A DNA stretch of 48,696 bases. Source: Isurus oxyrinchus (Eukaryota). Below the pieces are notes generated by a model. It worked only from the letters and a program-made list of their open reading frames with translations, was not told the DNA's origin and did not search any database. A program made the translations under genes and the position numbers. Shown here one piece after another: positions 346-42,759 of the stretch. Within the stretch, counting starts at the first letter, position 1. Each line of letters opens with the position of its first letter. Location: NCBI GenBank assembly GCA_026770705.1, contig JANJGN010000926.1, forward strand, positions 186,001-234,696, read 5' to 3'.

Positions 346-1614
346 GGACAGTGTGAGGGGTGGAAGGTGTAGTGGGGAGGAGACTCTTCACTCAGGGGGG
401 AGGTGTCATCACCCCTCAGCTCGGTTTACGTTACAGCTATGATGTGGATTCAATCACACACAATAAGCTCATGGATCTGGGAGCAGAAATAGGCAAATCA
501 TTAAAAATAGTGACGCTGGTTAACACGACCAAAAAACAAGCAAATCAAACACTATTATTTCCCATTGAGTGTTGGATGTGAATTGTTGAGTAATTATAAC
601 ACAGCACTTACCAGAAACGTGAAGCTGGGTTACAGGGTAATAGTTATGGCTCGGACGATTGCCAAATTTTATCGTGAAAAGATAATGTCCTGCATCTTCC
701 CGTCTGATGTTGTTTATAATCAGGGAACAGTCACCATCTTTCAGGTCTCCAGACAGCCAGGTCCGATGGTGGAACTGTGATAACTCGCGACTGTGACCCT
801 TGGAGTGAAAGGCTATAGACCATTTAGACCATTTGTTCCGTATGTATCTTCTCATTTTCCAGATTCAGACCTGTGGTTTCTTTACCAAATCTGATGGATA
901 ACTGTAATGACATGGTATCTGTACACACGAACCTTCCTGCGCTGTCACCTCTCGTGGAGTATCACCTTTCCACTCTTGTGACAATCCAACTGGGGAGAGA
1001 AATATCAATATTTAACTCTGGATGTTTTGTTGATTCACTAAGCTCGATATCCACCCCCTCCATCACTCGGGCACAGTGGCTGCAGTGTGGACCATCTACA
1101 GGACACACAATGAACTCCACAAGGTATCAAACCAGATGGAAGAGAATCCTGGACACAAAAGCGGAAAAGTTCATTCTACATTGGTTCATGGTCCTCAGGA
1201 CCCTGTTTGTGCAGAAGCCTGTTCTCCAACAGAACTGAAGTTGGGGACAATGCATTTGGAATTCCACTGTCCGGGGCATTGGGTTAACTTGCTGAGTTTG
1301 TTTTAAATCTAACATCTATTTTTGGTCTGTTGCCTTAAAGGGAGTGTAACTGGGAGTCAGGTTAATTAGGAATTTTAGGAGTTATTATAGCAGTCATTGT
1401 AGTCTTATGTATGTGCTTAAAATCTTTTATTTTGATGACAAATATTTTAATTTATTTTTTTAACTCTCTAAAGGTCTTGGTGTAATTATTGCTTCTGAAT
1501 TCAGTGCACACATCTCATAATAAATACAAATTGCAAAATCATGATGATCGTGTGACCACCTTTCTCTCATGGACTTGGTCTGCCTGGCACACATCACCTG
1601 CCAAGTGATAACAC

Positions 1615-5330: not shown

Positions 5331-6758
5331 AAGAGTTACTGATGTGGGGCTTAATTTATCAGATTGTAGAATGATCCGGAAATGAAGGATGCCATTTGGC
5401 CCATCGAGCCTGTGCTGGGCCTTTGAAAGATCTGTCCAATTATTCCCACTCTCACCTCTGCTCTCTCCTCCACAGCCCTGCAAAATGTCCCCTTCAAGTA
5501 TTTATCTAGTTCCCCTTCTGAAAGTTCCTGTTGAATCTGCTTCCACCGCCCTTTCAGGCAGTGAGTCAATGGTCTCTCTCTGAGCTGCAAAGTGCTAATG
5601 TTCTGAGAACTTTAAACTCTGCAGCAGATCAGAAACAATCATGATAACTCAGAATATTTGACAGCTTTACACACAGACAGCTTTGCCTTCCTTCTCTCTT
5701 TCAGTTATCTTGCTCCCTTATTGAAGTATCTAGCAAGGTGAGAATGGACAGGAAGTGTGACACTGAACAGCCTGTCTATTCTAGGAGCTGCTGTGTTGTC
5801 TTCATGGGAAATTCTGACTAAAATCAGCAATAGACACAAAATTTCAGGGCATTGTTATCCGAGTCCCAGCATCAGGATAGACCTCATCCCCCAGTTGGTA
5901 TTCCTGATTCTCTATTCAGCTGATCACTCCCCTGTCACTGGCTGAACTACACTGACTCCCAGTCCAGCAATGACTCAAATTTCAAATTCTCATCATTGAT
6001 TTCTTACCCCACCATCCCCCCTCTACACTCTCTATCTGTGTAACCTCCTCCAACCCTAAATCCCTCTGAGATCTCTGCACTCCTCCAATTCTACTGTCAG
6101 ACAGGGAGTCAGTGTATATCAGTGAGCACAGGGGTGATGGGTGAATGGGACTTGGTGTGAGTTTGTACACTGGCTCACTGCTGAATCGGTTGCCAATCAC
6201 ACTCAATAAGAATGATCTTTTACAAAGACTATTAGCCATAAAACTGTCCGAGCTGACGACGTTATTACCTTGGAGAAGTGACAGGAGGAAGTAGGATTTC
6301 CCGATCATTGTCCACTCCCAGATACTTCATAAGCTTCTGACTCTCAAACTCTGAAAGAAAAAAGAGTTAATGAGACCTCACCTCTTGTCCGACAGCTCTC
6401 AAGAGATCAGAACTGTTTTTGGACAATGTCTTTACAGAGTAATTTGATTCTCTGTGGGATGATAGGTGCTCTGCAGAGAGTTACAAGGCTTTAAGAAATA
6501 AAAACATTGAAGGATTTGCATTTCTATAGCACCTTTCACCACCTCAAGACGTCCCAAAGCTCATGTCTCTGCACTTCCCTCATCCCTTGAGCTAGAAAGA
6601 TGTTCTGTACAACAGACTTGAGTCTCACACCCAGATCTCAATAACCAGTAGAAATCTTTCAAAGGCATCAATCATTGGAATCGGTCTTTATAAAGTCACA
6701 ACATCAACAAAGGACGGTGTTGGTCGTGGAAGTGAATTCCAGTCGTTCCGTTACTTAC

Positions 6759-6899: not shown

Positions 6900-7124
6900 G
6901 GTAATCAGTGAGAAGATCGAGGATGTTTTGTGCTCTCAGCAAAACGTTTACCATGTGTGATCTGTCAGCTCATATTTGGGCAGCTGTAGTCATGAAGCTT
7001 CTCCATTGGCTCCGTGGGATTAGACTCCTCCCCCTCACCACAGAGGCTGAAACTCAGGCGATAGAGTCCCCAACACAGGTCTCGGGCCGTATGATACATT
7101 TCAACGAGCCCTGTTATCATTACG

Positions 7125-8108: not shown

Positions 8109-8821
8109 TTCTGTGCGTGGTCTGCAATGTCCTAAGTGCATTCTAGGCACAGCCCAAGATTCCGCCTGATGTCTGTGTAACAACAACATCATGTACATGT
8201 CGAGAATAATTCTCACTGTGTTGGTGCAGCAAGACAGTTTTGGAATGGCACCACCACTGGCAGGAGTGTGCAGCTGCAATGTGACGTGTTTACATTGAAA
8301 ATTTCCATTATAAAGATGGCCACAGGAATTCATCTGACTGGAAAAAGTGACAACATGAAATAATGTCTTTGAGCCAAGAATCTGGCAGCAAAATAAGAAT
8401 CTTAATCCATAAGTATCTACAGAAAAGGCTGAACATTTTAATCACTTGTGTTAATCAATGTAATTTTATTCATAACCCAAATGCTTCTTACAATCTATCG
8501 CAGCATGAAAAAGGTGCAGCATTCAGAAAGCACATTCCAATCAGAGAACAGAGTTTAGCAACGTCACATTTCTGTTCATTCCTATTCGACCATGTTGGCT
8601 GCACACAGCCAGACAATGCCGTGGTTATGATGTGTCCACACAGCAGGACTGGGGAGCACCAGGTATAAGGAAAAGTTTCAGCTTGCTGAGGAGAAGAAGG
8701 AGAATCTCTCGTTCCAGGTTTCTCTCCGTACATTAAGAAGCAGGCATGCCGATGTTTCATTGCACTCTGTCTGCTGATGGGAGTCCGCTTGGAAATTGCT
8801 GTTTGTGCTGATGGAAAGAAT

Positions 8822-9543: not shown

Positions 9544-9683
9544 TCAAACAGTCTGTCGACTTCCTTTCACTGTTTGTCTCTCCCAGACACAGACTCCAGT
9601 GATAGTGATAACCACAGCCACAAGGAATATCACAGCTCGTATTCCCAGGATCAGGATCACATGCAGAATCTCTCCTCCACTGT
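9544..9683 (-). other. Transmembrane/short-tail exon of copy B with intramembrane Arg
   Basis: tttctttctgtgtgttctctag|AC AGT GGA... encodes (H/D)SGGEILHVILILGIRAVIFLVAVVITITGVCVWERQTVKGSRQTV*. Confidence 0.8.
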
Positions 9684-10074
9684 CTAGAGAACACACAGAA
9701 AGAAATCATCACTGACTCTCCGCTTTCAATCTCTCACTCTGGCTGAACAATCAAGCTTCATATCACTGCAACATTTGCTGTAATATTGACCCATCCACTG
9801 GGATTCAATGTGGAATGAATGTTTTCATTGGAAACACTCTAAGAGTGGACAATCGGAACTTTCCCCTTAGCGTGGAACATTGTTGAGAATGGATCATTGT
9901 GCTGTTGGACTCCCTGTCCAATGTTTCTCTCCATCGCTGTGTACAGGATTGTGCTGTAGAAAATTCTGGAAACGTTTAGTGCAGGGTGGAAATCCATCTC
10001 GGACGCGTGTGCGAATCGGGCAGTATCGAGATGGACTCCCCCACGGACTTACACCCCCCGCTTAATAAACAGTT

Positions 10075-10450: not shown

Positions 10451-13400
10451 CCATGATCTCTCCCCCAGTCAGTAACCATTCCAGATCCCTCTTGAAGGCG
10501 ACAGAGAAACAGGAACTACCACACCCACTGACAGCACATTCTCAAGGATCCCTACTCTTTGGGAAAAGATGAACTCCCCAACATCCAGCCTATTCCTGCT
10601 TCCCAGAGAGTGTAAACCCTTCAGGGAGGCGCTGAGGAAGTTTTCAATAAAATGAATTATCAAATCTATCATTTGAGAAATAATTTAATTCTGATGAACT
10701 CACAGCTTGTGTAGCAAACTGGGAAGTGGAGTTGCTTGAAAAGCTGGGAAACACAAGGATTAAGTGCTACAATGCCACCACTGGTGGGAGACTGTAACTA
10801 CAGTGTGACGTTTACATAGGCAGTCATCATTATAAACAGGGGCATTGGACATACTGGGAAATATGTGCACTGGAAAGGTGAGTAAATGATGTAAGATTTT
10901 CACCAGCAGGAATTCTCTAACTAAACCTCTCCACCTCTCTCTTACTCTCAGATACACAAACAAAATCACACCGAATCAGATAAGGAGGAGTTGGGGCCGG
11001 TGATTGTTCGAAGGGTTAGCTTTCAGGAAGCTTCTTAAAGGGAGAGAGAGAGTTGGAGAGGCAGAGAGTATCTGTGAGTGTCTCTATGCATCTGAGTGTC
11101 TGTAATAGACTTTTTAATTTCCATATTCTTCCATAAATATGATTGGGAACACAAATCCCAGAATCCAGGCCAACTCTCCAGTGCAGTACTCAGGTAAGCC
11201 ACAGGGGAGTGTGTGCTAGTGTGTTTGTTCGTGAGTGTGTCTTTGTAATTGCTCATACATGTGTGTCTGCACGTGTCTATTTAGTTCTGTATATTTGTGT
11301 GTGTTTGTGCAATGTTTGAATCTGAGAGAGATGTTGATGTCTGTGTACACTCACGTTCCACAGTGATGGTTATGAACCCCTCCACTGCTCCATGTTCATT
11401 CTCTGCCACACACTGATAGTCTCCAGTGTCCCGATATGTAATGGGAGGAATCACCAACCACAGCTCATTGTTGGAACTTGTTCTGTTCATTTGGACATTA
11501 AGATGTCAGGGCAGGAATCAAGAAGCCCGTTCGCAGGATTACCAACAGAAAGTGAACCACAATTTATACTTAATGGGAAGAGAGTGCTGATTGGTTGGCA
11601 AGTGGTCTCTGATAGGTGGACGTGTTGCCATGGAGAATGGTGTGTGCGAGATGTAAACTTTAGACAGCTTGTCTCTTTATTCAGCAATAATCAAATAAAG
11701 ATCAATTAACTTCAATCGACTGTGAAGCACTTTGAGAGGTCTGAGAATGTGGACACTGAGAACGGGCTGCACTGTCAGAGGGTCAGCGCTGAGGGAGTGC
11801 TGATGTAGAATGAAAGGTGTATGTACTTACCTTGCACAGTTAGTACGAGGGTCCGCTCCGATGAAACAGATGGATATCTCACTCTGCAGCTGAGTGTGTG
11901 TCCGTGGTGTTTGAGTGATGGGATCAGGGTCAGAACAGAAGTATAGGTCAGAGTGACACCATGCTGAGTTACAGTGTTTGAGACTGATCCAGGTACGTCA
12001 GTGGGAGTTTCCCAGGTTAAGACAGGCGCTGCTGTTCCATTGCACGTTGTGTTGATGGTGCAGCTTACATCCACATGCTTTCCTGCAATAATTTCAGCAG
12101 GGAATATCGTGGGTGTATCTGTGAAATCTAACAGACAGAGAATGGATCCTTTTAGAGAAATATAACGTGAAGCATCAGTTCAAATAGAAACCACAGTCCC
12201 ACAAGAGAAAGCACTTTTACAAGGATGATATCAGAACTGAGAGGTTACAATGATCAGGAGAGATTTTCTTGCTCTTTGGCAGTAGTGTTTCTGTCTCTCA
12301 GCTTAATACACGTTCACTCCGAGACATGTGAATTGAGAACACTGGATGAGAGAAGAGGCTCAGACCAGAGATTGGAGTTCAAAGCAGAATACTGCGGATG
12401 CTGGAAATCTGAAACAAAAACAAAAATTGCTGGAAAGACTCAGCAGGTCTGACAGTATCAGTGGAGAGGAAGCCAGGGTTAACGTTTCGAGTCCGTATGA
12501 CTCTTCATCAGACCAGAGGTTTGAGTTCACTGGCTTCTCATTTCCTCAGTGATCTGGGTGATTTATTACCTTGTGGTTTGTTGGATCTTGCTGTGCACAA
12601 ACTGACTGCTGTGTTTTACATCTGTGACTACAATTCAGGAATAATTTCAATGGCTGTGAAGGGATTTGGATCCTCCTGAGGTGGTAAATTGCGCTGCAGA
12701 AATGCACATCTTTCTTTTATCGATACGTCAGACTTTTAAACAGGACAGGAGAGATTGATGAGAGTGGATAACCTGATAATACAGTTAATGCTTTTCATCA
12801 TTGATATTAAAGTGAGTATTAGACGTTGCTTTAGGACTGAACTGGAAGCTATCACCAGGTTATTGAGAATCAGATAGCAAGTTATAATAAGCTGTGTTTT
12901 GTGTTAATATGTAAACGTCACAGATTGTGTTATCTCCCATTGAGTGTTGAATGTGAATTGTTGAGTAATCATAACACAGCACTTACCAGAAACGTGAAGC
13001 TGGGTTACAGGATAATAGTTGTATCTATTCCTGCTGTCAAATTCTATTCTGAAAAAATAAGGTCCTGCATCTTCCCGTCTGATGTTGTTTATAATCAGGG
13101 AACAGTCGCCATCTTTCAGGTCTCCAGACAGCCTGGTCCGATGGTGGAATCTTTGATCCCTGTGACTGTGACCCTCGGAATGAAAGGCTATAGACCATTT
13201 CGGCTGTGGGTTCCCATCTATTCCTTTCAACCAGATTCCGACACGTGATCTCCCTACGAAATTTGATAAGTAACTGTAATGACATGGAATCTGTACACAC
13301 GAACCTTCCTGCGCTGTCACCTCTCGTGAAGTGTCGCCTTTTCAATCTTGTGACAGTCCAACTGGGGAGAGAAATATCAATATTTAACTCTGGATGGTTT

Positions 13401-14554
13401 GTAGATCCACTAGACTTGATATCCACCCTCTCCATCACTGGGGCACAGTGGCTGCAGTGTGGACCATCTACAGGACACACAAGGAACTCCCCAAGGTTTC
13501 ACAATGGATGGAAGAGAATCCTGGACACAGGAGTGGACAAGTTCATTCTACATTGGCTCATGGTCCTCAGGACCCTGTTTAGTGAAGCCAGTCTTCCACC
13601 CAACACAGAGTCTACAAGATACACAGGGAAACTGTGTAAACATCTCATCTCTCTACACTGACTGGTTTGAGCTTCGGTTTAACTTTCAGTATTTTTAAAT
13701 TTCCATATTGTGGTTGCTATGGTGAAACTGTGCAGGAAGAGTGAGGGCTGGACCCTCTGTCTATTCTCACTGCAGCTGTGATGTGGTCGTGGTGATTCTC
13801 AGTAAAATGAAACCCTCTGAGCTCCTCCATCCCCGAGGTTTAGGGAGTGAATTCCAGAGCTCAGGCCCCAGGCAGCTGAAGGCCCGGCCGCCAGTATTGG
13901 AGTGATGGGAATCGGGGGATGGTCAAGAGGCCAGAATTGCAGTAACACAGAGATCTGGGAAGTTGTTTGGGTGAGTTGCAGGAGGTTACAGAGATAAAGA
14001 GATAAGAATGATCTTTTACAAAGAATATTAACCATAAATCTGTCCGAGCTGATGATGATATTACCTTGGAGAAGTGACAGGATGAAATAAGATTTCCCGA
14101 CCATCGTCCACTCCCAGATATTCCATCCACTTCTCACTCTCAAGCTGTGAAAGAGAAAGGAGTTAATGAGACCTCACCTCTTGTCCGACAGCTCTCGAGA
14201 GATCAGAACTGCTTTTAGACAATGTCTTCACAGATTAATTTGATTCTCTGTGGGATGATAGGTGCTCTGCAGAGAGTTACAAGTCTTTAAGTAAGACAAA
14301 CAATGATTGATTTGCATTTCTATAGCACCTTTCACTATCTCAGGACATCCCAAATCTCATGTCCCTGCACTTCCCTCATCCATTGAGCTAGAAAGATGTT
14401 CTGTACAACAGACTTGAGTCTCACACCCAGAATTCAATAATCAGTAAAAATCTTTCAAAGGCATCAATCATTGGAATCTGTCTTTATAAAGTCACAACAT
14501 CAACAAAGGACGGTGTTGGTGGTGGAAGTGAATTCCAATCGTTCCGTTACTTAC

Positions 14555-14695
14555 CCAGGACCTGTCCGACTGCTCGCCTGGGGAGGAACTGCCCACACGC
14601 TCTGCTTGGGCTGAATGACCTCTTCCTGTGCTGCTCCCTATTTGTGTTTAATTAAAATGGGTGGATGTGTCACTGTGAGTCAAAATGAGGAAGTG
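14555..14695 (-). promoter_or_regulatory. Non-coding first exon and promoter of copy B (AP-1 TGAGTCA adjacent to PU.1/ETS motif)
   Basis: Donor at 14555; TGAGTCA at 14676-14682 followed by AAAATGAGGAAGTG at 14682-14695. Confidence 0.6.
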
Positions 14696-14799
14696 CTTGG
14701 TACCAAGTGAGAAAGCAACTCTTTGCCTCGCACTGTTAGAAAACTGTTAACCCTTTGCGTGCCAATAATGTGGTTGAAGGGCCATCGACTGTTCATATG

Positions 14800-16075
14800 C
14801 AACAAGCTCGAGGGTTTGAATGGGCCTCCTCCTGTTCCTGTGTAACAGGCTCGAGGGGTCTAAATGGGCCTCCTCCTGTTCCAGTGTAACATGATTGTGT
14901 GGCTGATTAAGCCTCCCCCTGTTCCTGTGTAACAGTCTTTGGCAGGGCTGAATGTGCCTCCTCCTATTCCTGTGTAACAGGCTCCAGGTGCTGAATGCCC
15001 TCCCCCTGTCCTTGTGTAACAGGCTCGAGTGTCCGAATAGGCCTCCTCCTGTTCCTGTGTAACAGGCTCAAGAGGCTGAATGGATCTCCTTGTTTTCCTG
15101 TGTTACAGGTTAGATGGTCTGAATGGGCCGCCTCCTGTTCCTGTGTAACAGGTTCAAGGGGACAGAATGGGCCTCCTCCTGTTTCTGTGTAACAGCATCA
15201 TGGGGCTGAATGGGCCTCCACCTGTTCCTATCTAACAGGCTTGAGTGGCTGAATGGGCCTCCTCCTGTTCCTGTGTAACAGGCTTGATGGGGCTAAATGG
15301 AGCCCCTAATGTTCCTGTGTAACAAGCTTGTGGAGGCTGAATGGGTCTCCTGTACCTGTGTAACAGGCTCAAGGGGACAGAATGGGCCTCCTCCTGTTCC
15401 TGTGTAACAGGCTCGAGGGAACAGAATGAGCCTCCTCCTTTTCCTGTGTAACAGGCACGAGGGACTGAATGGGTTTCCTATTCCTGTGTAAGTGGGTTGA
15501 GAGACTGAATGTCCTCTTCCTGTTCCTGGGTAACAGGCTCGAGGAGCTGAGACTCTCTCCTGTTCCTGTGGAAGGGTGTTGAGGGACTAAATGTCCTTTT
15601 CCTGTTCCTGTATAATAGGCTCAAGAGGCTGATGGGTTTTCTCCTGTCCTCATGTAACAGGCTTGAGTGGCTGAATGGTCCTCCTCCTGTTCCTGTGTAA
15701 CAGGCTTGAGGGAATGAATGGGCCTCCTCCTGTTCCTGTGTAACAAGCTCGAGGGGGCTGAATGGGCCTCCTCCTGTTCCTGTGTAACAGGCTCGAGGGA
15801 ATGAATGGGCCTCCTCCTGTTCCTGTGTAACAGGTTCGAGGGGGCTGAATGGCCTCCTGCTGTTCCTGTGTAACAGGATCAAGAGGCTGAATGGGCCTCC
15901 TCCTGTTCCTGTGTAACAAGCTCGAGGGGGCTGAATGGGCCTCCTCCTGTTCCTGTGTAACAGGCTCGAGGGGCTGAATGTGCCTCTCCTGTTCCTGTGT
16001 AACAGGCTCGAGGGGGCTGAATGGCCTCCTGCTGTTCCTGTGTAACAGGATCAAGAGGCTGAATGTCCTCCTGTC
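14800..16075. repeat. ~42-44-bp minisatellite (GTTCCTGTGTAACAGGCTCGAGGGGCTGAATGGGCCTCCTCCT)
   Basis: Roughly 30 tandem units visible; the unit contains the LINE-tail motif gggctgaatggcctcctcct. Confidence 0.92.
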
Positions 16076-17408: not shown

Positions 17409-17525
17409 TTATAAATTCCCATAAACAGAATCCTTGGCAAAATCACAGTTTGCGTAAAGATCATCATCTGTATCAGGATTGACTCCACGGTTAGATTTCA
17501 TTTCCAGATCCTTCTCATCTTTCTT
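17409..17525 (-). CDS. Orphan terminal cytoplasmic-tail exon with tyrosine motifs (ITIM)
   Basis: catttctgtttctattacag|AAG... encodes KKDEKDLEMKSNRGVNPDTDDDLYANCDFAKDSVYGNL*; minus-strand AATAAA at 16630-16635. Confidence 0.7.
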   Translation of the reverse strand, partial: KKDEKDLEMKSNRGVNPDTDDDLYANCDFAKDSVYGNL

Positions 17526-17662
17526 CTGTAATAGAAACAGAAATGATCAGAGTGACAATCAGAGTGATCAGTGTTTAGTATTATTGATCCAAATCGAAAA
17601 TTCCACCCACAATACATACATTAATTATTGATACTGTTGGATGCTGGTCACGAGTTTGTTGG

Positions 17663-20600
17663 GACTTATGGATCCAGTCTTGTTTTGGAGAGGCTGAGTA
17701 GGTACAATAGACAGAGTAGATCAGCAGACAGTTCTTAGATGAAACACATTCTGCTTATTTACAAAGGAACTCAGCAGCTACACTTGTGTGCTTTCAACTC
17801 AAGCCCTGTCTCCGCATTACAGGCTCTAACCATAGGTGACCGACTACTGAGGTACCTGCGCCACTCGGCTGTTGGACACTGATATAAGAGTTAAACAGGG
17901 ACTTCTATTAGTGAAAACCAAAGGTCAGCAGAATTCTCCAGGTGAACCTTGTGCACCATGGGGCTGACATCAGCAGAACTCTCCAGAAAGGCCTTGAAGA
18001 TCACAAGGGATTAACTCGAGAAGAGACATAAAGAGATGCTGAGGGTAAACAGATCAGGTAAAGGCAAACAGCACCAGGCTAGAACGAGATAAACAGCTCT
18101 TGCTTGGGTAAGGAGCAGATATATACCTGGGACTGGGAACATCTGCTTATTATGTGATTATGTACTGACAAGATTTGAATTTAAATAACCCAATGTGTAC
18201 GTGACTAACTCTGTGAACAAAAAAGATGGTTTCCCTGTAATGGGTAGAGTTCTGTTTTTAGCCAGGCCTGAGGTTGATTCTGAGAACACACCACAACACT
18301 GAGCTCATGTTATCTTCCATTGTAACCTTCTTCTTAAAGGTATATCACACATCAGATTACCACCACCCTCCCCCTTTACTCAGAAACACATTTTACACTT
18401 ACTTTTACCATTTTCTCAAAGTATCAGATGATTTACACAGATCAGTAATTTACAAATTCAGTCTTTCTGGGGGGTTTCCTTATGCGTCTGGAACGTCTCA
18501 GATCCACAGCTTCAGATGCTTTGTCAGGAGTCTCCTTTTCTGATGTTGTCCCAACACCAGCTTCTTCGGTGGACACCTGCAAACCTGTTTCCTCAACTCT
18601 TGCAGGTACAACGGACCCTTCAGACACATCTGTTCTCAGCTGAGTTCTTTCAACAGGAGACATAGACACAGCCGTGAAGACTGGTGGGGTTGTTTCTTGG
18701 TACTTTGTTTCTCTCCTCCTTATATGACCCACATGTCTCCATATGACTCGGTCTTCCACTTTCACATGGTGAGAAAGAGTTCCAATCGCTGCATTTATTT
18801 CACCCGGTGACCACTTTGGCCCTTCTCTAAAATCGTTCACATATACCGTCTCTCCTACGGTCAGCTTCCTGTCATGGCTATGCCAGTCATGTCCAGTTTC
18901 CTGTCTTCCTGGACTCCTTTCCACCTTCCCGCTGACATTTAGCATGACTGATGTTGCAAATGTGACGTGAGAAAAAACTTTTTCACACAACTAAGTTTTG
19001 GGCCTGGAATGCACGGCCTGGACGTGTTGTGGAGGCAGGTTCAATCGAGGCATTCAGGAGGGCATTAGATGGTTATTTGGATAGAGAAAAGGTGCAGGGG
19101 CATGGGGAAAGGCAGGGCAATGACACTAGGTCATGATGCTCATTTGGAGAGCTGGGATAGACATGATGGGCTGAATGGCCTCCTGCTGTGCCATTAAGAC
19201 ACTGTGATCCTGCAGAGGAGACTCTGAAAGGCAAACCGGTTTATTGATACAACCCTTTGTGTGTATTAATTGTGACAAACTTCTGGGAGGCCTTCTCGAA
19301 CTCCAATTGTTGATAAGCATGGCTCATATCAGCTCCGTGTAGGCCGTTCCAGTCAATTCTTGTCATCTCCACAAACACTTTGGCCAGGCTCAGGTCCAGG
19401 GACTATTGGTGCTGCCCATTCTGAGGACAGCACAGATTGTATCACTCCCAGTTTCTAGAACCTGCCCAATTCAGCATCTGCCTTTTCCCACATTGCATAA
19501 GGTACTGGTCGTGCCTTCATAAATCAGAGGGGTAGAGTCTGGATCCACATGAATTTTTGCTTGCAGCCCCTGGATCTCCCCGAGTTCATCTTGGAAAACT
19601 GAGATGTATTTTTGTAGTAGCTCAGGTAGCCCACTGGCTCTCAGTTGGAAGATCTCAGACCAATCCAGCTTAATATCTTTCAGCCAGTTTCGTCCAAGGA
19701 GGCTTGGTCCCTCACCAGCTCCCATCATCAAGGGTCATTTTACTGATTGACTTCCATACTGTATAATAACCCTGCTTATGTCTTTGGCTTGAATGTCTTC
19801 TCCCGTGTAAGTTTTCAATTAGTCATCTGTTTCTTCCAAATTTAATTGACTTTCCCCATGATTCCAGTATTTGAAAGTATGCTCCCCAATTAGCGTAGTG
19901 TTAGCTCCTGTGTCCACCCCCATTCTGAGAGCTCTATCATTCACCCTCACTGTTACATAGATTGGCTCTGTTCTTCCTACCTTTAAATTATACAATGAAT
20001 AACTATCTGAATCTGTTACTTCAGGCTCTTCTATGTTATGGATCTCACAGGGTTTTCTCTCTTGATTGAAACTCTGCCTGATTCTATCCTTGCAATCTCT
20101 CATGGGCTCTCTGTTTCGATGACAGTAAAAACAATTGATTTTTTTAAAGTTCCATTCACTACGAGGTTGTCTGCTTCACCTCTGTTCCCATTATTCCATG
20201 TTTTCTCTGCTAAGTCATTCCTTTTTATTTGCTGCTAGTGGTGGAGGTTTCCCGTTTCTCATCAGAGCTGTACATTTTCCCGCACTTCTTGGCTGAGGCT
20301 CCTCACCCAACATGAGGACGGTGACATTTTGCACTCTCCATATGTTTTTCGAGTCCCTCACTGCTCTTTCCATAGCCAGCACTATTCCCAGCGCCTTCTG
20401 AATATCCAAATCTGTTTCAGACAGTAATCTCTTCTGAATCACATCTTCATTTATACTGCACACCAGTCGATCTCTCAGCATATCATTTATAGATTTACCA
20501 AACCCACAATGTCCTGTTAACTGTTTCAGAATTTCCACATAACATGCAGCTGCCTCCCCTGGGACTCTATTTCTTGAGTTAAATTTGGACCGTTGCATCG

Positions 20601-21005
20601 TTACCGAGGGCTGGGGCTGGGAAGGAATCTTCACAAGGTTCACAAGATCATCTAAACTTTTTGAATCCATGGCACCGGGTGGCATTAAAGTTCGCATCAA
20701 TCCCTAAGTCTTACTCCCACACGTGGATAAGAGGGTCGCTCGCCTCTTCTCCTCCCCATCAATGTCATTCACTTGGAAAAAGAATGCGAGAGGTTCACCA
20801 TAATGAGACCAATCGCCCACCGTTGGGTCGAAAGGATCAACTCTTCCAAACTGCAGCATTCTTCGAGGGGACTGCTTCGGTTATTAGGATGGAAATTATA
20901 TTTATAATCACTGTGCGAGGCACGGCCAGATTTCAATTCGCTTGCTTTCATTCCTTGCTTTTTCTTCCTTGTTTTTCACCTCATCACCAGTTTATTCAAC
21001 CCTTG
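17663..21005 (-). mobile_element. Degenerate Ty3/Gypsy retrotransposon (gag, protease, RT start, integrase C-terminus, PPT, 3' LTR)
   Basis: Gag MLRDRLVCSINEDVIQKRLL; protease VDTGA; GPSLLGRNWL; integrase tail RRSRRIRKPP; PPT AGTAAAGGGGGAGGG at ~18366-18380; large internal deletion. Confidence 0.85.
17870..18298. mobile_element. Solo LTR nested in the Gypsy 3' LTR
   Basis: 429-bp block with inverted termini TGTTG...CAACA interrupting the LTR; no clean target-site duplication seen. Confidence 0.5.
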
Positions 21006-21039
21006 TCACTATTTTAGTTGACCAATGGGTTCGGTTTAC

Positions 21040-21680
21040 ATTCCCTCGGTACTGAGCCTGCGACAGTGCAGCATTCCCTCGGTACTGACCCTCCAGCAGT
21101 GCAGCACTCCCTCAGTACTGACCCTCCGAAAGTGCAGCTCTCCCTCAGTACTGACCCTCCGACCGTGCAGCACTCCCTCAGTACTGACCCTCCGATTGTG
21201 CAGCACTCCCTCAGTACTGACCCTCCGACTGTGCAGCACTCTCTCAGTACTGACCCTCCCACAGTGCAACACTCCCTCAGTACTGACCATTTGACAGTGC
21301 AGCTCTGTCTCAGTACTGACCCTCTGACAGTGCAGCACTCCCTCAGTACTGACCCTCTGACAGTGCAGCTCTACCTCTGTACTGACCCTCTCACAGTGCA
21401 ACAGTCCCTCAGTACTGACCCTCCAACAGTGCAGTACTCCCTCAGTACTGACCCTCTGACAGTGCAGCACTCCTTCAGTACTGACGCTCCGATTGTGCAG
21501 CACTCCCTCTGTACTGACCCTCTGACAGTGCAGTTCTCTCTTAGCACTGACCCTCTGACCTTGCAGCACTCCCTCAGTACTGACCCTCTGACTATGCAGC
21601 ACTCCCTCAATACTCACCCTCCAACAGTGCAGCTCTCTCTCAGTACTGACCCTCCGATTCTGCAGGACTCTCAGTCCTGA
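21040..21680. repeat. 33-bp minisatellite array (reverse orientation relative to 7125-8108)
   Basis: About 19 units of CAGTGCAGCACTCCCTCAGTACTGACCCTCTGA. Confidence 0.92.
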
Positions 21681-21908
21681 CACTGAGTGCTGATCTGGTT
21701 TGCCAGCCTGAATTTTGCCAAATGAATCTCGAACAGGTGACCATCCACTCAGAGAGTGAGAGAGGGTTCGAAACCCAGTGACCCACAGGAGAAATTCCTG
21801 GTCAATGACTTTCCACTTTTGAGCAGAAATATCATCACAAGTCCAGAACGCAAAGGGTTAACAGCTTCAAAAAACTCAAAACATCAGCTGCTCTGTCACT
21901 TTGATCTG

Positions 21909-22048
21909 ACTTCCTCATTTTGTCTCACAGAGACACATCAACCCTTTCTAATTAAATACACAGAGGGAGCAGCACAGGAAGAGGTCATTCAGCCCAAGCA
22001 GAGCGTGTGGGCAGTTCCACCCCAGGCGAGCAGTCGGACAGGTCCTGG
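21909..22048 (+). promoter_or_regulatory. Promoter (PU.1/ETS motif) and non-coding first exon of copy C
   Basis: ACTTCCTCATTTT at 21909-21921; donor GG|gtaag at 22048; inverted near-copy of 6759-6899. Confidence 0.6.
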
Positions 22049-22492: not shown

Positions 22493-22532
22493 ATGATCGG
22501 GAAATCTTACTTCCTCCTGTCTCTTCTCCAAG
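22493..22532 (+). CDS. Siglec-like copy C, signal-peptide exon
   Basis: MIGKSYFLLSLLQ + G|gtaata; acceptor at 22459; phase 1. Confidence 0.8.
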
Positions 22533-23455: not shown

Positions 23456-23824
23456 TTGGACTGTCACAAGAGTGGAAAGGTGACACTCCACAAGAGGTGA
23501 CAGCGCAGGAAGGTTCGTGTGTACAGATTCCGTGTCATTACAGTTATCCAGCACATTTGGAAAGCCAACCACGAGTCGGAATCTGGTTTAATAACGAGAA
23601 ACACAAATTCGACAATCCCTTTGCCTTTCACTCCAAGGATCACAGTCACGAGTTACCAAGGTTCCGCCATCGGACCCAGCTGTCTGGAGACCTGAAAGAT
23701 GGCGACTGTTCCCTGATTATAAACAACATCAGACGGGAAGATGCAGGACCTTATTTTTTCAGAATAGAATTTGGAAGTACAAATAACTACAACTATTACC
23801 CTGTAACCCGGCTTCACATTTCTG
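23456..23824 (+). CDS. Siglec-like copy C, V-set Ig exon (intact, essential Arg present)
   Basis: 369-nt phase-1 exon VGLSQEWKGDTPQEVTAQEGSCVQIPCHYSYP...GIW...RTQLSGDLKDGDCSLIINNIRREDAGPYFFRIEFGSTNNYNY; Cys pattern fits the Siglec B-E intra-sheet disulfide. Confidence 0.92.
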
Positions 23825-24750
23825 GTAAGTGCTGTGTTATAATTACTCAACAATTCACATCCAACACTCAATGGGAAATAACACAAACTGTGACGTTTAC
23901 ATATTAACACAAAACAAAGCTTATTGTAACACACTGTCTGATTCTCAATAACCTGCTGATAGCTTCCAGTTCAGTCCTAAAGCAACCTCTAATACTCACT
24001 TTAATATCAATGATTAAATAGATTGAGTGTGTCCATCAGTGTTATCAGGTTATCCAATCTTATCAAGCTCTCTAATCCTGTTTTAAATTCCCACAAATTG
24101 ACAACAGAATGACTTGCATTCCTATAGCGCCTTTCACCACATCAGGACGATCCTTAATCGATTCACAGCCAATGAAGTGATTCTTGAAGCACACATTCTC
24201 TCCACTCTCTGGGTAAAGAAGTTTCTCCTGAATTCCCCATTGGAGTTATTAGTGAGGATCTTATATTGTCAGCCTCTGGTTTTGTTCATTTGTTCCATGT
24301 CTACTCGATCAAAACCTTTCACTACTTGAAAGATCAAATGAGGTCACCCCTCAACCTTCTCTGTTCACGGGAACAGAGACCCAGCCTGTTCAGCCTCTCC
24401 TGATAGGTAAAGCCTCACATTGCTGAGATCATCCTTGTGAAGCTTTTTACCACCCTCTCCAGTGTCTCTATATCCTTTTCCAAATGCTGAGTCTGTTCTC
24501 CCCTAGCTGTGAGCTGTTCCTCCACCCTCACCCAGTCTGGTCAAATCAAGGGTCACTGAGTGAGAGTGTATTAATCTGAGTGACAGAGATTCAACAAGTG
24601 TAAAAAGAGACAATTCTAAAATGATCATTGTAACCTCTCAGTTCTGATATCATCCTTGTAAAAGTGCTTTCTCTTGTGGGACTGTGATTTCTATTTGAAC
24701 TGATGCTTCACGTTATATTTCTCTAAAAGGATCCATTCTCTGTCTGTTAG

Positions 24751-25047
24751 ATTTCACAGATAAACCCACGATATTCCCTGCTGAAATTATTGCAGGAAAG
24801 CGTGTGGATGTAAGCTGCACCTTCAACACAACGTGCAATGGAACAGCAGCACCTGTCTTAACCTGGGACACTCCCACTGACGTACCTGGATCAGTCTCAA
24901 ACACTGTAACTCAGCATGGTGTCACTCTGACCTATACTTCTGTTCTGACCCTGATCCCATCACTCAAACACCACGGACACACTCTCAGCTGCAGAGTGAG
25001 ATATCCATCTGTTTCATCGAAGCGGACCCTCGTACTGACTGTGCTAT
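24751..25047 (+). CDS. Siglec-like copy C, C2-set Ig exon
   Basis: 297-nt phase-1 exon DFTDKPTIFPAEIIAGKRVDVSCTFNTTCNGTAAPVLTW...TSVLTLIPSLKHHGHTLSCRVRY; extra Cys for the interdomain bond. Confidence 0.9.
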
Positions 25048-25214
25048 GTAAGTACAAACACCCTTCATTCTACATTAGCAGGAATAGTATCAAATGTGCA
25101 CAGCAAGCTCCCACATACTGCACTTTGTTTATAAACAAACCATTGGTGTTTAACTAGTAAAAAGTGAGCCCTGACAGGCAGTACATCCTTACTACTGACT
25201 CTCCGACAGTGCAT

Positions 25215-26950
25215 CATGGACTCATAGACTCATAGACACTTACAGGACAGAAGGAGGCCATTTAGCCCATCTTGTCCATTCTGGTCAGCAACTCCCTCCC
25301 TAAGTGCATCACCTCACATTTTTCCAGGTTGAAGTCCATTTGCGTCGTGATCATTCCCCCTATATTTACGTCCAATTCATTTATATACACCACAAACAGC
25401 AAGTGCCCCAGCACTGAGCCCTGTGGAACCCCACTGGAAACAGACATCCAGTCACAGAAACATCCCTCCACCATCACCCTCTGCTTCCTGCCTCAGCCAA
25501 TATTGGATCCAACGTGCCACTTTGCCTTGGATCCCATGGGCTCTTACTTTCTTGGCCTCTCTGCCAAGAGGCACCTGATCAAAAGCCTTCCTCAGCCCAT
25601 GTCGACCACATCAAAGGCATTACTCTCATCAACACTCCTGGTTACCTCCTCAAAAGATTTGATCAGGTTTGTCAAACATGACCTTCCCTTAACAAATCCA
25701 TGCTGAATATCCCAGATTAATCCTTGTCTCTCCCAGTGCAGATTCATTCTGTCCTTCAGAATTCTTACTAGTAACTTCCCCACCACCGAGGTTAGACTGA
25801 CTGGCCTGTAATTTCCTGATCTATCCCTTCCTCCCTTTTTTAATAATGGGACAACATCAGCCATCCTCCAGTCCTCTGGCACCTCACCTGTGGCCAGAGA
25901 GGATTTGAAAATTACTGCCAGGGCCCCTGATATCTCTTCCCTTTCCTCCCTCAACAGCTTTGGATTCATCTCATCTGGGCTTGTGGATTTATCCACTTTT
26001 CAGGCCACTAAACCCACTAGTACCTCCTCTCTCTGTGTTAATTTCCTCTCATATTTCACTGTCCTCCACCCTGATGTTATACCTGCATCATCCTTTTCCA
26101 TTGTGAAGACTGATGCAAAGTATTCATTGAGGACTGTACCCACGTCTTCCAGGTCCACACACACATTACCTCGATAGTCCCTAATCGGCCCCACTCTTTA
26201 CCGAGTTATTCTCCTGTTCTTTACATATTTAAAAAACCCCTCTGGGTTTTGCTTTATTCTACCCACCAGTGCTTTCTCATGCACTCGCTTATCTTTCCTA
26301 ATGTCCTTTTTCAGTTCCCCTCTGCACTATTTGTACACCTCTAGGGACTCTGCTGTATTGAGCCCTCAGTATCTGCCATAAGCTTCTCTTTTTTCTCAAT
26401 CCTAACCTTTACGTTCCTTTTCTTCCAGGGTTCTCCAGACTTGGTCTCCCTCTTTGTCTTTACAGGAAGATATCTGCTCTGTACTCTCGCTATTCCCTCC
26501 TTGAATGCCTCCCACTGCTCTGACACAGTTTTATCTGCAAAGAGCTTCTCCCAGTCCACTTGGGCCCAATCATATCTCATCTTAGTAAAATTAGCCTTTC
26601 CCCAGTTTAGAATTTTTATTCCCAGCACAAACTTATCCTTCTCCATAACTGTCCTAAATCCAATTGAGTTACAGTCACTATCTCCCCTACTGATACGCTT
26701 TCCACCTTTCCCTGCGCTTTTCCATATATTAGGTCCAGAACTGTCCCCTCCCTTGTTGAGCTTTCTATGCACAGACTAAAAATCTTCTCCTGGATGCAAC
26801 TTCAGAATTTTTCTCCCTCCCTACCTTGCTCACTAAAGCTGTCCCAATTAATATTTGGGTAGTTAAAATCCCTGAGTATTACTGCTTTATTATTCTTACA
26901 CATCTCTGAAATGTGATCACATGTTGGATTGTCCATCTCTCCCTGACTGT
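25215..26950 (-). mobile_element. CR1-type LINE ORF2, degenerate with internal deletions
   Basis: NYRPVSLTSVVGKLL...QHGFVKGRSCLTNL; VSSGVPQGSVLG.LLFVVYIN; LNEYFASVFT; tail aatggcctccttctgtcctgtaag with tctatgag repeats. Confidence 0.92.
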
Positions 26951-27022: not shown

Positions 27023-27892
27023 TTGTTAGTTGATGCTCGCTATCAATAACCAAGAGAGACCGACATTGGAACAAGCTGATTATTTATTGCAAGAGGGCAG
27101 AGCACTAAATTTTTGCATGTTCCCACACCCACCTCCAGCTCTAGACTTACAGTGAACCAGTAGCCCGCACTGTACAATGATTGGGCAGCACTGTCACATG
27201 GTTTATCCACTTGCATTCTCTTAACTGTACATGGAACTCCACTTTACCACATCCTTCCCCCTTTACTTAAAAAGTGCAGTTGACAAACTTAATAACAAGT
27301 GAACTAATTACACTAATAACTATTTACAAATCAAGTCTCTCAGGAGGCTTTCTCGAATGTTTCTCCTTCCAAATTTTGGGACCTGTCCTCTACATGTGGC
27401 CCAGACTCAAGTGGAGATGAAGACTTCATTTCTTCTTGTGGGACCAGCGTTATTTTGGGGAAATGATCCACATGTCGTTTACTGATACATGAGAGGAGAG
27501 GGATCCAGTTACTGCACTCACCTCGCCTAACAGCCAATTGGACCCATCTCCATAGTTCATCGCAAGGACTGCACCTCCCACAGTGAAAGTTCTTTCCCAG
27601 CATGACCATCGTGCCTGGTCTCCTGCGTCTCTTGGCTTTTCTCCAGCCTCCCCTTTAAATCCGGCTGGATAAGGGTCAGGTGGGTGCGGAGATGTCTCTT
27701 CATTAGTAGTTCTGCAGGGCCAATGCTGGTCGTTGTTTGTGGCCTGGCCCAGTTTGTGAAGAGGAACCGGGACAATCTCATGCCGATGGAATCCCCTTCC
27801 ATCTTTCTCACCCTGGATTTAAAGGTTTGGATGCCCTGCTCAGCCCTGCCGTTCGATGCTGGGCGGTAGGGTGAGGGTTTGATATGGGTGAT
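27023..27892 (-). mobile_element. Gypsy 3' fragment: integrase core end, PPT and 3' LTR
   Basis: HIKPSPYRPASNGRAEQGIQTFK...PAELLMKRHLRTHL; PPT at ~27251-27268; ~230-bp TG...CA LTR at 27023-27250. Confidence 0.8.
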
Positions 27893-28024
27893 GAAGTGCT
27901 GAATAGTAACTGAGGGCTGTGGTCTCAGGTGGTTTGGAACAATTTTTATTCACTGGTTGAAAGTCTTCGAGTCATGTCAGAGATTTTGGAGGAACATCGG
28001 GACCGGAGGAGGTGTTCTCCTGCT

Positions 28025-28869: not shown

Positions 28870-29430
28870 GACTTGCATTTCTCTAACGCCTTTCACCACA
28901 TCCCAAAGCATTTCACAGCCACTGAAGGAGGTTTTTGAAGTGCACTCACACTGTAGGAAATGTGGCAGCTGATTTGTGCACAGCAAGATCCCACAAATAG
29001 CAATGTGATCATGGCCTAGATCATCTGTTTTTGGTGATGTTGGGTGAGGGATAAATATTGGTCCCAGGACACCGGGGAGAACTCCCCCTGCTCTTCCTCC
29101 AAATAGTGGCTGTGGGATCTTTCACACCCGCCCGAGAGGGCAGACGGGGGACTCAGTTTAATGTCTCATTCAACATTGTTGCGCTCCCTCAGTACTAACC
29201 CTTTGACACTGCAGCACTCCCTTAGTATTAACCCTTCGATAGTGCTGCGCACCCTCAGTACTGTCCCTCCGTCAGTGCAGCTCTATTTCAGTACTAACTC
29301 TTCGACACAGCAGCACTCCCTCAGTACTGACCTCCGACAGTATAGCACTCCCTCAGTACTGTCCCTCCAATAGTGCAACACTTCCACACTACTGACCCTC
29401 TGAGAGTGCAGCACTCCCTCAGCACGGAGC
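28870..29430 (-). mobile_element. Deu-domain SINE (SacSINE1/AmnSINE1-like) with internal 33-bp tandem expansion
   Basis: Reverse complement of cccgtctgccctctc...aagatccca...gaagagcaggggagttctccccggtgtcctgg..aatatttatccctca; runs into 33-bp units at 29180-29425. Confidence 0.8.
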
Positions 29431-29487
29431 GTTGATCTACATTATGGGACTGAATTCCCTGGAGTGAGACTCAGACCAGTGATTTAG

Positions 29488-29825
29488 GTAGGGTTGTCGG
29501 GGCTGGAGGAGGTTACAGAGATAGGGAGGGCTGTAGAGGCTGTAGGAGGTTACAGAGAAAGGGAGGGTTGTAAGGGCTGTAGGAAGTTACAGAGATAGGG
29601 AGGGTTGTAAGGCCTGGAGGAGGTTACAGAGATAGGGAGGGTTGTAGGGGCTGGAGGAGGTTACAGAGATAGGGAGGGTTGTACGGGCTGGAGGAGGTTA
29701 CAGAGATAGGGAGGGTTGTAGGGGCTGGAGGAGGTTACAGAGATAGGGAGGGGTGTAGGGGCTGGAGGAGTTTACAGAGATAGGGAGGGTTGTACGGGCT
29801 GGAGGAGGTTACAGAGATAGGGAGT
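29488..29825. repeat. 37-bp minisatellite (GGAGGAGGTTACAGAGATAGGGAGGGTTGTAGGGGCT); reverse-orientation array at 32480-32760
   Basis: About 9 tandem units visible. Confidence 0.9.
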
Positions 29826-30187
29826 GGCTGAGGAGGGATTGAAAACAAGAATGAGAATTTCAGGGGAAATGACAGAAGGAAATGATGTTAAATTCATAGA
29901 GGGCGACAATATTAAAGGCACGAACATAATAATATCAAACTGCGGAAGTGACCAGTCTATCTGGGTGGTAGACGTAGAGTCATGTGCAAGAAACACCTCA
30001 CCCAGAGGGACATCTCTTAGCTTAACCTCGACAAGGAGAAGAAGTGACTCAGCTGCAGGGAGAGCAGCAAAGTCAGAGTGAACAAGACAAGTCGCCATTT
30101 CATCTGGGAGCTTCCCATCTCTGCCTGTCTCTTCTGATCTTCTGGCTCTGCTTTGATGCTTTGGTTTGTAACTAGAGGAGCTTCCTG

Positions 30188-33989: not shown

Positions 33990-34490
33990 AAGGGGCTGAA
34001 TGGCCTCCACCTGTTCCTGTGTAACGGGCATCAGTGGCTGAATGGGCCTCGTCCTTTTTCTGTGTAACAGGCTCAATGGGGCTGAATGGGCCTCCTCCTG
34101 TTCTTGTCTAACAGGCTCGAGGGGGCTGAATGGGCCTCCTCCAGTTCCTGTGTAACAGGCTTGAGGAGCTAAATGGGCCTCCTTCCGTTCCTGTGTAACA
34201 GACATCAGTGGCTGAATGGGCTTGCTCCTGTTCCTGTGTAACAGTCTTGAGGGGGCTGAATGGCCTCTTCCTGTATCTGTGTAACAGGCTCAATGGGCTG
34301 AATGGCCCCCTTCTGTTCCTGTGTAACAGTCTCGAGGGGGCTGAATGGGCCTCTTCCTGTTCCTGTGTAACAGGCTCGACGGGCTGAATGGCCTCCTCCT
34401 GTTCCTGTGTAACAGGCTTGAGGGGGCTGAATGGCCTCCTCCTGTTCCTGTGTAACAGGCTCAAGGGGCTGAATGGCCTCCTTCTGCTCT
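33990..34490. repeat. ~43-bp LINE-tail-derived minisatellite, same family as 14800-16075
   Basis: About 12 units of gggctgaatggcctcctcctgttcctgtgtaacaggctc. Confidence 0.9.
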
Positions 34491-34714: not shown

Positions 34715-35857
34715 GCCTGTGAGGATGCTTCAATTCTTCAAACTCATTCCGAGATACACTCTCATATTCCCCCAGCAACTCAGCAACTCCTCCAGTGAAA
34801 CATTTCAGAGCAGCTGAGCTTGGTTTTCTGGAACCAGTCTCGGCCCAGAAGACTAGGGCCCTCACCTGTCGCTATGATCACTGGAAGCTGGGCTGTCTGC
34901 TGCCTGTAGGACACAGGTACTGGGACCAGGTCCTTTCCCTGTATGGATTCTCCAGTGTGTGTCTTCAGCTGATCCATTGTTGGCTCTAAATTCAGCGTCT
35001 GGGTTCCTTCATTTAGCTGTTTAAATGTGGGCTCTTCCACCACTGTGTCTGAGGCTCCCGTATCTGCCCCATTACTAGTGGCTGCCCATTCACTTGGGTT
35101 GTGATGGTTATAGGTTCAGTTTTTACCACTGTGACATTGGACAGGGAATAGACATCGGTATCAGCAGCTTCAGGCTCTGTGATATTATTCACTTCCATCA
35201 TGTTGGTGCACTGTCTGATGGGCTGTCTCGATTTCACCCTGCATTGCTTTATTACCCGCCCCTTTCTTGTGGCAGTGATGGCATTCTGCCCCCTTGAACC
35301 TGCAGGTGTCCGGTACGAGCTCACCCCCCCCACATCGAGAACAGACCAACTTCGGAGTTGCTGCTGAAATACTCCCACAAAGCCTTTTAGTTTCTGGAGC
35401 GGCAGAGACTGTCTCTCGCTTGGCGGCTGTCTCTCTCTCTCTCTCTCTCACTCCAGTTTGAGCCTCACGCCCGGTGGTTGGTTCCTGTCCCAGCTGAGGA
35501 CTGGTGCCATGTTGTACATCCTGTAAATCCCGCCAGTCTCTCCCAGCACTTTCCATGCCTGGCGCTATTTCCATAGTGCGCTTCAAATCGATGTCGGCTT
35601 CTGCGAGTAAACGGCTCTGAATGGCGTTGGGGTGAACGACACAAACCAATCGGCCCCGCAACATGTCATTGAGTGTGTCTCCGAGGTCCCAGTGCTCAGT
35701 CACCTGCTTCCACTTCACTGTATAGGTTGCGATGGACTCTCCCTGGGCCCTTACTCTGGAGTTAAACTTAAACCTCTGCATTATTACCCACGGCTTCAGC
35801 TGAAAACACATCTTCATGAGGTCGACTAATTGGTGAAAAGATTTAGAATTGGGTGCA
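34715..35857 (-). mobile_element. Gypsy gag-protease fragment, same family as 17663-21005
   Basis: VIMQRFKFNSRVRAQGES...MLRGRLVC; CSRCGG...CRFKGAECHHCHKKG; EPEAADTDVYSL; GEGPSLLGRDW. Confidence 0.85.
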
Positions 35858-42570: not shown

Positions 42571-42759
42571 CCTGCCATATTTCAGATGATGTTTGAAATT
42601 AGCAACATGCCTCATGTATAATTATATATCATCAGCTCAAAATAAATAGATTATTCCTGTACGTTTCACTTTACTGTAAATTGTTTGCAGTTTCATTTCC
42701 TTAGAAACCAGGCTTGTGTGATCACCACTTTTAAATAACGTTAATAATAAAGATTCGAC

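What the first reader, a model, noticed from the sequence alone, without database searches (positions are those of the whole stretch)
23456..23824. Hypervariable loops in V-set exons against near-identical frameworks and C2 exons
Copies A/B/C differ sharply in three patches: B-C loop (PSDLVKKPQ / LSNFVGRSR / PAHLESQPR), C-C' region (KMRRYIRNKWSKWSI / LKGIDGNPQPKWSI / FNNEKHKFDNPF) and F-G loop (GNRPSH / DSRNRY / GSTNNY). Indels preserve frame (exons of 378, 375 and 369 nt). LSGDLKDGDCSLIINNIRREDAG is invariant, and the C2 exons of B and C differ at about 6 of 99 residues. The C-C' loop sets glycan specificity in Siglecs, so this suggests diversifying selection.
Basis: partly seen in the sequence, partly recalled or inferred. 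Interest (0 to 1): 0.7.

Follow-up and report, generated by a model that had tools for sequence, protein, structure and literature searches.

The report
Shark Siglec receptors reshuffle binding loops
Three copies of a shark gene resembling sugar-sensing immune receptors differ almost only in the loops predicted to grip the sugar, two copies carry stop codons, and the pattern likely comes from DNA exchange between copies that evens out the scaffold while old loop variants are kept and recombined.

Summary
V exons A (612-989, -), B (12987-13361, -) and C (23456-23824, +) differ at 42-47% of bases in the B-C and F-G loops against 4-6% in the framework. The B and C C2 exons differ at 6 of 98 residues. 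They belong to an expanded shark and ray Siglec-like family.

The finding does not mention that A and B carry in-frame stops, or that A lacks the essential arginine. No later family exon was found for C.

Its prediction (dN/dS above 1 in the loops) holds only if loops and framework share one synonymous clock (omega 6.9). With the clock freed, omega is 1.3 and not different from 1.

The B/C intron is a sharp-edged patchwork from 1% to 35% divergence. In related sharks the 5' and 3' halves of the V exon reject each other's trees, and loop types occur in all four combinations. Best reading: conversion between paralogues homogenises framework and C2 while old loop variants persist and are reshuffled, probably under selection for diverse ligand binding.

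The processes are known from mammalian Siglecs and CEACAMs. I found no paper on this shark family. No binding data exist.

The parts
23456..23824 (+). Copy C V-set exon (369 nt), open frame, essential Arg present
   Evidence: Pfam V-set E 2.5e-13; Siglec fold
23548..23574 (+). B-C loop of C (residues 31-39)
   Evidence: 14/27 variable columns; between model strands 22-29 and 39-44
23587..23622 (+). C-C' loop of C (residues 44-55), length-variable between copies
23680..23748 (+). Invariant D-E-F core, 69 nt with one synonymous difference among the three copies; likely region of exchange between 5' and 3' loop sets
   Evidence: split point used (the exchange role is inferred)
23761..23763 (+). 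Essential F-strand Arg (R102 of C)
   Evidence: aligns with the FFR(L/V)E motif of Siglec-8 and -5; Arg in 126 of 135 homologous V domains
23773..23790 (+). F-G loop and start of G strand of C (residues 106-111)
   Evidence: 14/18 variable columns
21964..22048 (+). Upstream exon spliced to the leader exon in relatives' RNA contigs
22493..22532 (+). Coding part of the leader exon of C (MIGKSYFLLSLLQ)
   Evidence: splice 22530->23454 in 3 of 4 runs
24751..25047 (+). C2-set exon of C; last family exon found for this copy
   Evidence: splice 23823->24750 in 4 of 4 runs
24622..25080 (+). Likely conversion tract shared with B 11798-12256: 97% identity over 459 nt, 1 difference in 129 intron bases, sharp 5' edge
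24011..24185 (+). Deeply diverged but homologous intron segment (40/164 differences to B)
24519..24621 (+). Deeply diverged intron segment (36/102 differences to B) abutting the tract
12987..13361 (-). Copy B V exon (375 nt), in-frame stop at codon 6 (13342-13344)
11831..12127 (-). Copy B C2 exon
11350..11505 (-). 3' half only of B's third Ig exon (end coordinate approximate); 5' half not found
9547..9684 (-). Transmembrane exon with an Arg and a short tail, downstream of B (activating-type, inferred)
   Evidence: 93% to P0027 301-346
14065..14104 (-). Coding part of the leader exon of B
612..989 (-). Copy A V exon (378 nt), in-frame stop at codon 41 (865-867), essential Arg replaced by Thr (673-675)
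6269..6308 (-). Coding part of the leader exon of A
17412..17528 (-). Orphan cytoplasmic exon ending in DLYANC...SVYGNL (ITIM-like)
   Evidence: 82% to P0034 425-463

Best explanation
These are paralogues of an expanded shark Siglec-like receptor family in which gene conversion or unequal crossing-over likely keeps the V framework and C2 exon nearly identical, while the predicted sugar-binding loops persist as old, divergent variants that are likely reshuffled into new combinations under probable selection for varied ligand recognition. Shown: Siglec fold and motifs, loop-restricted variability, sharp-edged identity tracts in the B/C intron, conflicting trees for the two halves of the V exon, and stops in A and B. 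Inferred: conversion as the cause of the tracts, exchange within the invariant core, selection as what keeps the loops apart, sialic acid as ligand, and a donor role for the broken copies.
For: (1) The B vs C intron is a patchwork: 12/186, 40/164, non-homologous middle, 36/102, 1/129 differences, with breaks at about 24015 (permutation p 7e-4) and 24622 (p 3e-4). (2) Against the deep intron segments (76/266), synonymous sites are too similar in the framework (5/54, p=0.002) and in C2 (3/78, p=5e-7), while the loops (19/45) are not significantly more diverged (p=0.08). (3) A loop synonymous rate 5.5 times the framework's fits better than a shared one (p=0.018). (4) Among 29 lamniform-type V domains (26 from two named species plus A, B, C), two C-C' types and two F-G types occur in all four combinations (3, 4, 10 and 4 domains; 8 others). 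B-C tracks C-C' (Mantel r 0.71) but F-G barely does (0.12). (5) The 5' half rejects the F-G-defined clade (AU p 5e-5) and the 3' half rejects the C-C'-defined clade (p 0.0085). (6) A's C-C' loop matches a basking-shark domain at 12 of 15 residues. A's and B's F-G loops each differ at 2 of 18 nt from loop variants in RNA contigs of a related organism (my comparison table 7), but at 11 of 18 from each other. (7) The family has both ITIM/ITSM-like tails (58 of 85 with a membrane segment) and Arg-bearing short tails (7), as in paired receptors. Theory: peaks of divergence under conversion mark targets of selection (passages of PMC3924837).
Against: Only three local sequences, two of them broken, so all codon tests are weak. 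With the fourth patch included, the freed-clock model is not significantly better (p=0.11) and omega is 2.1. The site-incompatibility test is significant in basking shark (p 2e-4) and white shark (0.005), not in three carcharhiniform sets (0.19, 0.10, 0.54), and mixed for the 29-domain set (0.035 and 0.54). Frameworks are closer to same-order, other-loop domains than to other-order, same-loop domains in only 17 of 38 cases (10 of 11 in lamniforms, 7 of 27 elsewhere), so homogenisation is not family-wide. All 10 domains of one of the four combinations belong to the 'second V' class, so the test mixes two positional classes. Homologues are predicted proteins from assemblies of tandem repeats, which can be chimeric. 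Loop types were defined after seeing the data. Peaks of divergence can also persist because divergence itself blocks conversion.
Confidence: 0.62

Rival explanations
1. Classical positive selection: recent duplicates whose loops accumulated amino-acid changes faster than neutral by point mutation, with the framework held by purifying selection.
For: With one synonymous clock, omega in the loops is 6.9 (p 1e-6), or 4.6 with the fourth patch (p 5e-6). Loop pN of 0.40-0.47 is far above the 0.08-0.09 divergence of the 5' non-coding blocks. Fast Ig1 evolution is documented for primate Siglecs (passages of PMC6288428). B's and C's C-C' loops have no close match among 135 homologues (nearest distance 0.67 and 0.50).
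Against: Loop pS is also raised (0.46-0.52 against 0.09-0.17). The neutral yardstick varies from 1% to 35% along one intron. Loop types are shared across species and recombined.
Confidence: 0.2
2. Old paralogues with birth-and-death evolution: loops are merely relaxed surface positions at neutral divergence, frameworks are conserved by purifying selection, and no selection for diversity is needed.
For: Within-loop pN/pS is about 1. Loop divergence is not significantly above that of the deep intron segments (p=0.08). Ig loops tolerate change (general knowledge).
Against: It does not explain 128/129 intronic identity with a sharp edge or the low synonymous divergence. Some loop types are conserved across orders (a PWAP-type C-C' loop in 21 domains of 5 groups), which relaxed sites would not keep. 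The two half-trees conflict.
Confidence: 0.13
3. Artefact: the differences reflect pseudogene decay or mis-assembly of near-identical tandem copies.
For: A and B have stops, B's third Ig exon is half missing, and C is inverted with no later exon found. The window has two N gaps.
Against: Decay would spread changes evenly, but they cluster (p 1e-4). The same positions vary among 135 domains from open reading frames of 18 species. The same loop variants occur in independent RNA contigs.
Confidence: 0.05

Closest known systems
CD33-related Siglecs of mammals (Siglec-5, -7, -8, -9, -10, CD33)
   Same: V+C2 architecture, essential Arg, tandem cluster, faster change in Ig1 than in Ig2, loss of the Arg and null copies, and loops B-C, C-C' and G-G' tuning ligand choice (passages of PMC6288428 and PMC10877568).
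   Different: Only about 30% identical, equally to MAG and sialoadhesin, so orthology is not shown. Many shark genes carry several tandem V domains.
Paired Siglec-11/16 and Siglec-5/14
   Same: Conversion between neighbours, activating and inhibitory tails, non-functional copies as donors (abstract of PMC5701461; passages).
   Different: There conversion covers the ligand-binding exon and keeps specificity alike. Here framework and C2 are homogenised while the loops stay different and are recombined within the exon.
Primate CEACAM N domains
   Same: Positive selection plus recurrent conversion of the outer Ig V-type domain (abstract of PMC8860441).
   Different: Protein adhesins are the demonstrated selective agent there; no ligand or pathogen is known here.
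MHC, R-gene and opsin-type divergence peaks under conversion
   Same: Islands of divergence amid homogenised flanks; pseudogenes kept as templates (passages of PMC3924837).
   Different: Different gene families; a donor role of A or B was not shown.
[quoted passage not shown]
   Same: 110 proteins from sharks and rays, up to 82% identical to C, closest in basking and white shark.
   Different: Names are automatic; no functional or evolutionary study found in my searches.

Membership tests
Siglec | N-terminal V-set domain followed by a C2-set domain | tested here: met
   Pfam V-set, Ig_CD22 and C2-set_2; leader-V-C2 splices in relatives' contigs
Siglec | V domain with Siglec fold | tested here: met
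   Best sequence hits are Siglec-8, -5, -10, CD33, MAG; top Foldseek matches are sialoadhesin, CD33, MAG and Siglec-7, TM 0.8-0.87
Siglec | Essential F-strand arginine (copies B and C) | tested here: met
   126 of 135 homologues
Siglec | Essential F-strand arginine (copy A) | tested here: not met
   ACG (Thr) in A
Siglec | Cys on strands B and E plus an extra V cysteine and an extra C2 cysteine (disulfide pattern recalled, not from a call) | tested here: met
   C21, C26 and C84 in 133, 135 and 135 of 135 homologues; three Cys in the C2 exon; bonds themselves not tested
Siglec | Binding of sialylated glycans | not testable with these tools
   needs a glycan array
Siglec | Membrane segment with ITIM-type tail or charged residue | tested here: inconclusive
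   Present in the family and as separate exons in the window, but none found downstream of C with 61 queries
CD33-related Siglec subfamily | Orthology or common cluster origin with mammalian CD33-related genes | not tested
   no tree with mammalian Siglecs and no synteny (no genome held)
Positively selected loops (site-model sense) | dN/dS above 1 robust to synonymous rate variation | tested here: inconclusive
   6.9 with a shared clock, 1.26 (n.s.) with a free clock; three sequences only
Concerted evolution by gene conversion | Sharp-edged tracts of excess identity, including non-coding DNA | tested here: met
Concerted evolution by gene conversion | Paralogues closer to each other than to orthologues across taxa | tested here: inconclusive
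   10 of 11 in lamniforms, 7 of 27 elsewhere, protein level only

The most novel reading that the evidence does not exclude
Lamniform sharks run a germline combinatorial repertoire of sialic-acid receptors: a small set of ancient B-C/C-C' and F-G loop cassettes is swapped across an invariant core between tandem V exons, with stop-carrying copies such as A and B kept as donors, giving CDR-like mix-and-match glycan specificities on both activating and inhibitory receptors.
Probability: 0.3. Interest if true: 0.7.

Novelty: new variant of a known kind. Interest (0 to 1): 0.42.

Why it matters
It would place the Siglec arms-race pattern (cluster expansion, paired tails, conversion, null copies) in cartilaginous fish. 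It would also show a different use of conversion than in primate paired Siglecs: recombining specificity loops rather than equalising them. Nearly identical scaffolds with discrete natural loop types are a ready panel for testing which loop sets glycan specificity. It is also a caution: dN/dS from such paralogues depends on which synonymous clock is assumed.

Tried and rejected
No whole genome was held, so copy number, synteny and a full codon alignment could not be obtained.

C-C' dN/dS was not used: the values swing with gap placement (pS 0.25-1.0).

Invariance of the 69-nt core was not taken as proof of conversion on its own, since it is also the most conserved part across 135 domains.

RNA contigs hold at most 0.33 of the words and carry other letters. 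They show that the family is spliced in relatives, not that copy C is expressed; 'RNA' is a guess for these runs.

Family-wide concerted evolution was rejected (17 of 38).

The downstream-exon search failed on an option and was rerun. The loop-parsing pattern parsed nothing; alignment columns were used instead. V domains were kept only if they scored at least 60 bits and covered the query from position 15 or earlier to 110 or later, and identical domains of one species were counted once.

Earlier scan findings: none by place or by sequence.

Literature on shark Siglec evolution: searches (listings of at most 25 papers) showed no dedicated paper; the whale shark genome paper mentions Siglecs once. 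The library lacks most subscription papers, and the Cao and Crocker review was not held. No supplements were read.

Full report
Observation. The window holds three near-identical V-set exons: A 612-989(-), B 12987-13361(-) and C 23456-23824(+), of 378, 375 and 369 nt. Two C2 exons differ at 6 of 98 residues. Differences cluster in the B-C loop (14 of 27 columns) and F-G loop (14 of 18), against 1 of 69 in the core; permutation p is 1e-4. The C-C' loop differs in length and sequence. The finding does not mention that A has TGA at codon 41 and Thr in place of the essential Arg, or that B has TGA at codon 6. B's third Ig exon lacks its 5' half. C is inverted relative to A and B, and no later family exon was found up to the window end with 61 queries (18 plus-strand hits at E up to 1, the only strong one an intron read-through; the same queries found B's later exons).

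Identity. C is a Pfam V-set/CD22-like domain followed by C2-set. Its best solved relatives are Siglec-8, -5, -10, CD33, MAG and sialoadhesin. The predicted model (pLDDT 88) matches them at TM 0.8-0.87 with about 30% identity. All 110 homologues found among 139 candidates come from sharks and rays, the closest (78-82%) from basking and white shark, so the host is probably a lamniform shark. From them 135 distinct V domains were extracted: Arg is kept in 126, and variability peaks in the same loops. Contigs of four runs of related organisms, guessed to be RNA, show the leader-V splice in 3 of 4 and the V-C2 splice in 4 of 4 at the predicted ends. They do not show expression of C itself. For Siglec-9 and -7, selectivity is attributed to the C-C' and B-C loops and the F/G strands (passages of PMC10877568).

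Loop pN is 0.40-0.47, but loop pS is 0.46-0.52, against framework pN 0.03-0.04 and pS 0.09-0.17 (path averaging can inflate pS in multi-hit codons). A codon model on 15 gap-free loop codons gives omega 6.9 with a shared synonymous rate (p 1e-6). With a free rate it gives omega 1.26 and a 5.5-fold rate scale, and the free model is preferred (p 0.018). With the fourth patch (30 codons) the free model is not significantly better (p 0.11) and omega 2.1 does not differ from 1 (p 0.13). So dN/dS above 1 is neither shown nor excluded.

Why the clock is unreliable. The intron between V and C2 of B and C runs 12/186, 40/164, non-homologous, 36/102 and 1/129 differences, with sharp breaks near 24015 and 24622. 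The 459-nt block around C2 is 97% identical. A and C are identical over 57 intron bases after the V exon. Relative to the deep segments (76/266), framework and C2 synonymous sites are too similar (p 0.002 and 5e-7), while the loops are only marginally more diverged (p 0.08). The frameworks therefore look young, rather than the loops simply fast. This is the divergence-peak pattern described for duplicates under conversion (passages of PMC3924837).

Loop shuffling. In 29 lamniform-type domains, two C-C' types and two F-G types occur in all four combinations (3, 4, 10 and 4; 8 others), and F-G distances barely track C-C' distances (r 0.12, against 0.71 for B-C). Trees of the two exon halves reject each other's main group (AU p 5e-5 and 0.0085; the 3' tree has few columns and rough bootstrap values). 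A joins a 5' half typical of first V domains with an F-G loop typical of second V domains. A's and B's F-G loops each differ at 2 of 18 bases from variants in a relative's contigs, but at 11 of 18 from each other. Against this: the incompatibility test is not significant in three carcharhiniform sets and is mixed in the pooled set; framework homogenisation holds in 10 of 11 lamniform but 7 of 27 other cases; and one of the four combinations consists only of second-V domains.

Mechanism. Most likely (0.62): tandem paralogues exchange DNA through long identical stretches. Exchanges that would erase a loop difference are removed or blocked, and exchanges across the core give new loop combinations. 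The family has 58 ITIM/ITSM-like tails among 85 proteins with a membrane segment, and 7 short Arg-bearing tails; both exon types lie in the window. This fits a paired-receptor arms race as reviewed for human Siglecs (passages of PMC6288428; PMC13358205). That charged membrane residues couple to activating adaptors is recalled knowledge. Ligand, selective agent and donor role are all inferred.

Comparison and verdict. It works like CD33-related Siglec clusters; orthology was not tested. It differs from Siglec-11/16, where conversion equalises binding (abstract of PMC5701461), and resembles CEACAM domain conversion (abstract of PMC8860441). Five searches listed no paper on this shark family, within a library that lacks most subscription journals; the whale shark genome paper has one passing mention. 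Real feature, known processes, a plausible new variant: interest 0.42.

Noticed in passing
homologues P0001-P0110 (not in the window copies): An extra Cys in the B-C loop marks V domains that follow another V domain: 33 of 44 such domains against 3 of 91 others (pattern-based classing). It may replace the C2 cysteine as partner of the preceding V's free Cys, which would make part of the B-C variation structural. A, B and C lack it.
   Followed up: partly
window 21964-22048(+), 14556-14639(-), 6760-6843(-): The exon upstream of each leader is spliced to the leader in some contigs, but in another it follows a membrane-exon end, and it appears as cytoplasmic tail in P0034: possible dual use as 5' exon and tail exon in head-to-tail genes.
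   Followed up: partly
window 35858-36151(-): Truncated V exon of a different, sialoadhesin-like subfamily (65% to P0033), breaking off just after the F-strand Tyr; probably a pseudogene fragment.
   Followed up: partly
window 17412-17528(-): Last cytoplasmic exon with two tyrosine motifs but no matching membrane or Ig exons found upstream on that strand, suggesting rearrangement around the inverted copy C.
   Followed up: partly
window 25048-25157(+): Read-through of C's C2 exon gives about 35 more residues before a stop, like predicted protein P0015; a secreted V-C2 form is possible.
   Followed up: no
window 990-5651(-): A's leader-to-V intron is about 5.3 kb against 0.7-0.9 kb in B and C, and its downstream intron departs from B/C after 57 nt.
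   Followed up: no
window 7050-8180, 20940-21760, 29140-29460, 40100-40270, 42050-42640; 14770-16070, 33990-34490; 29450-29900: Minisatellite families of 33, 43 and 37 nt; the 33-nt arrays lie upstream of A and C in matching orientation, and one unit borders the B/C C2 tract.
   Followed up: no
window 25270-26780(-), 27400-27950(-), 18445-18990(-), 20218-20703(-), 35188-35895(-): Decayed retroelement-like reading frames (by look of the translations); not searched against any library.
   Followed up: no
window 37280-40090, 46100-48696; N runs 41398-41645 and 45446-45673: Long low-complexity arrays and two assembly gaps in the distal half, which could hide exons of C.
   Followed up: no
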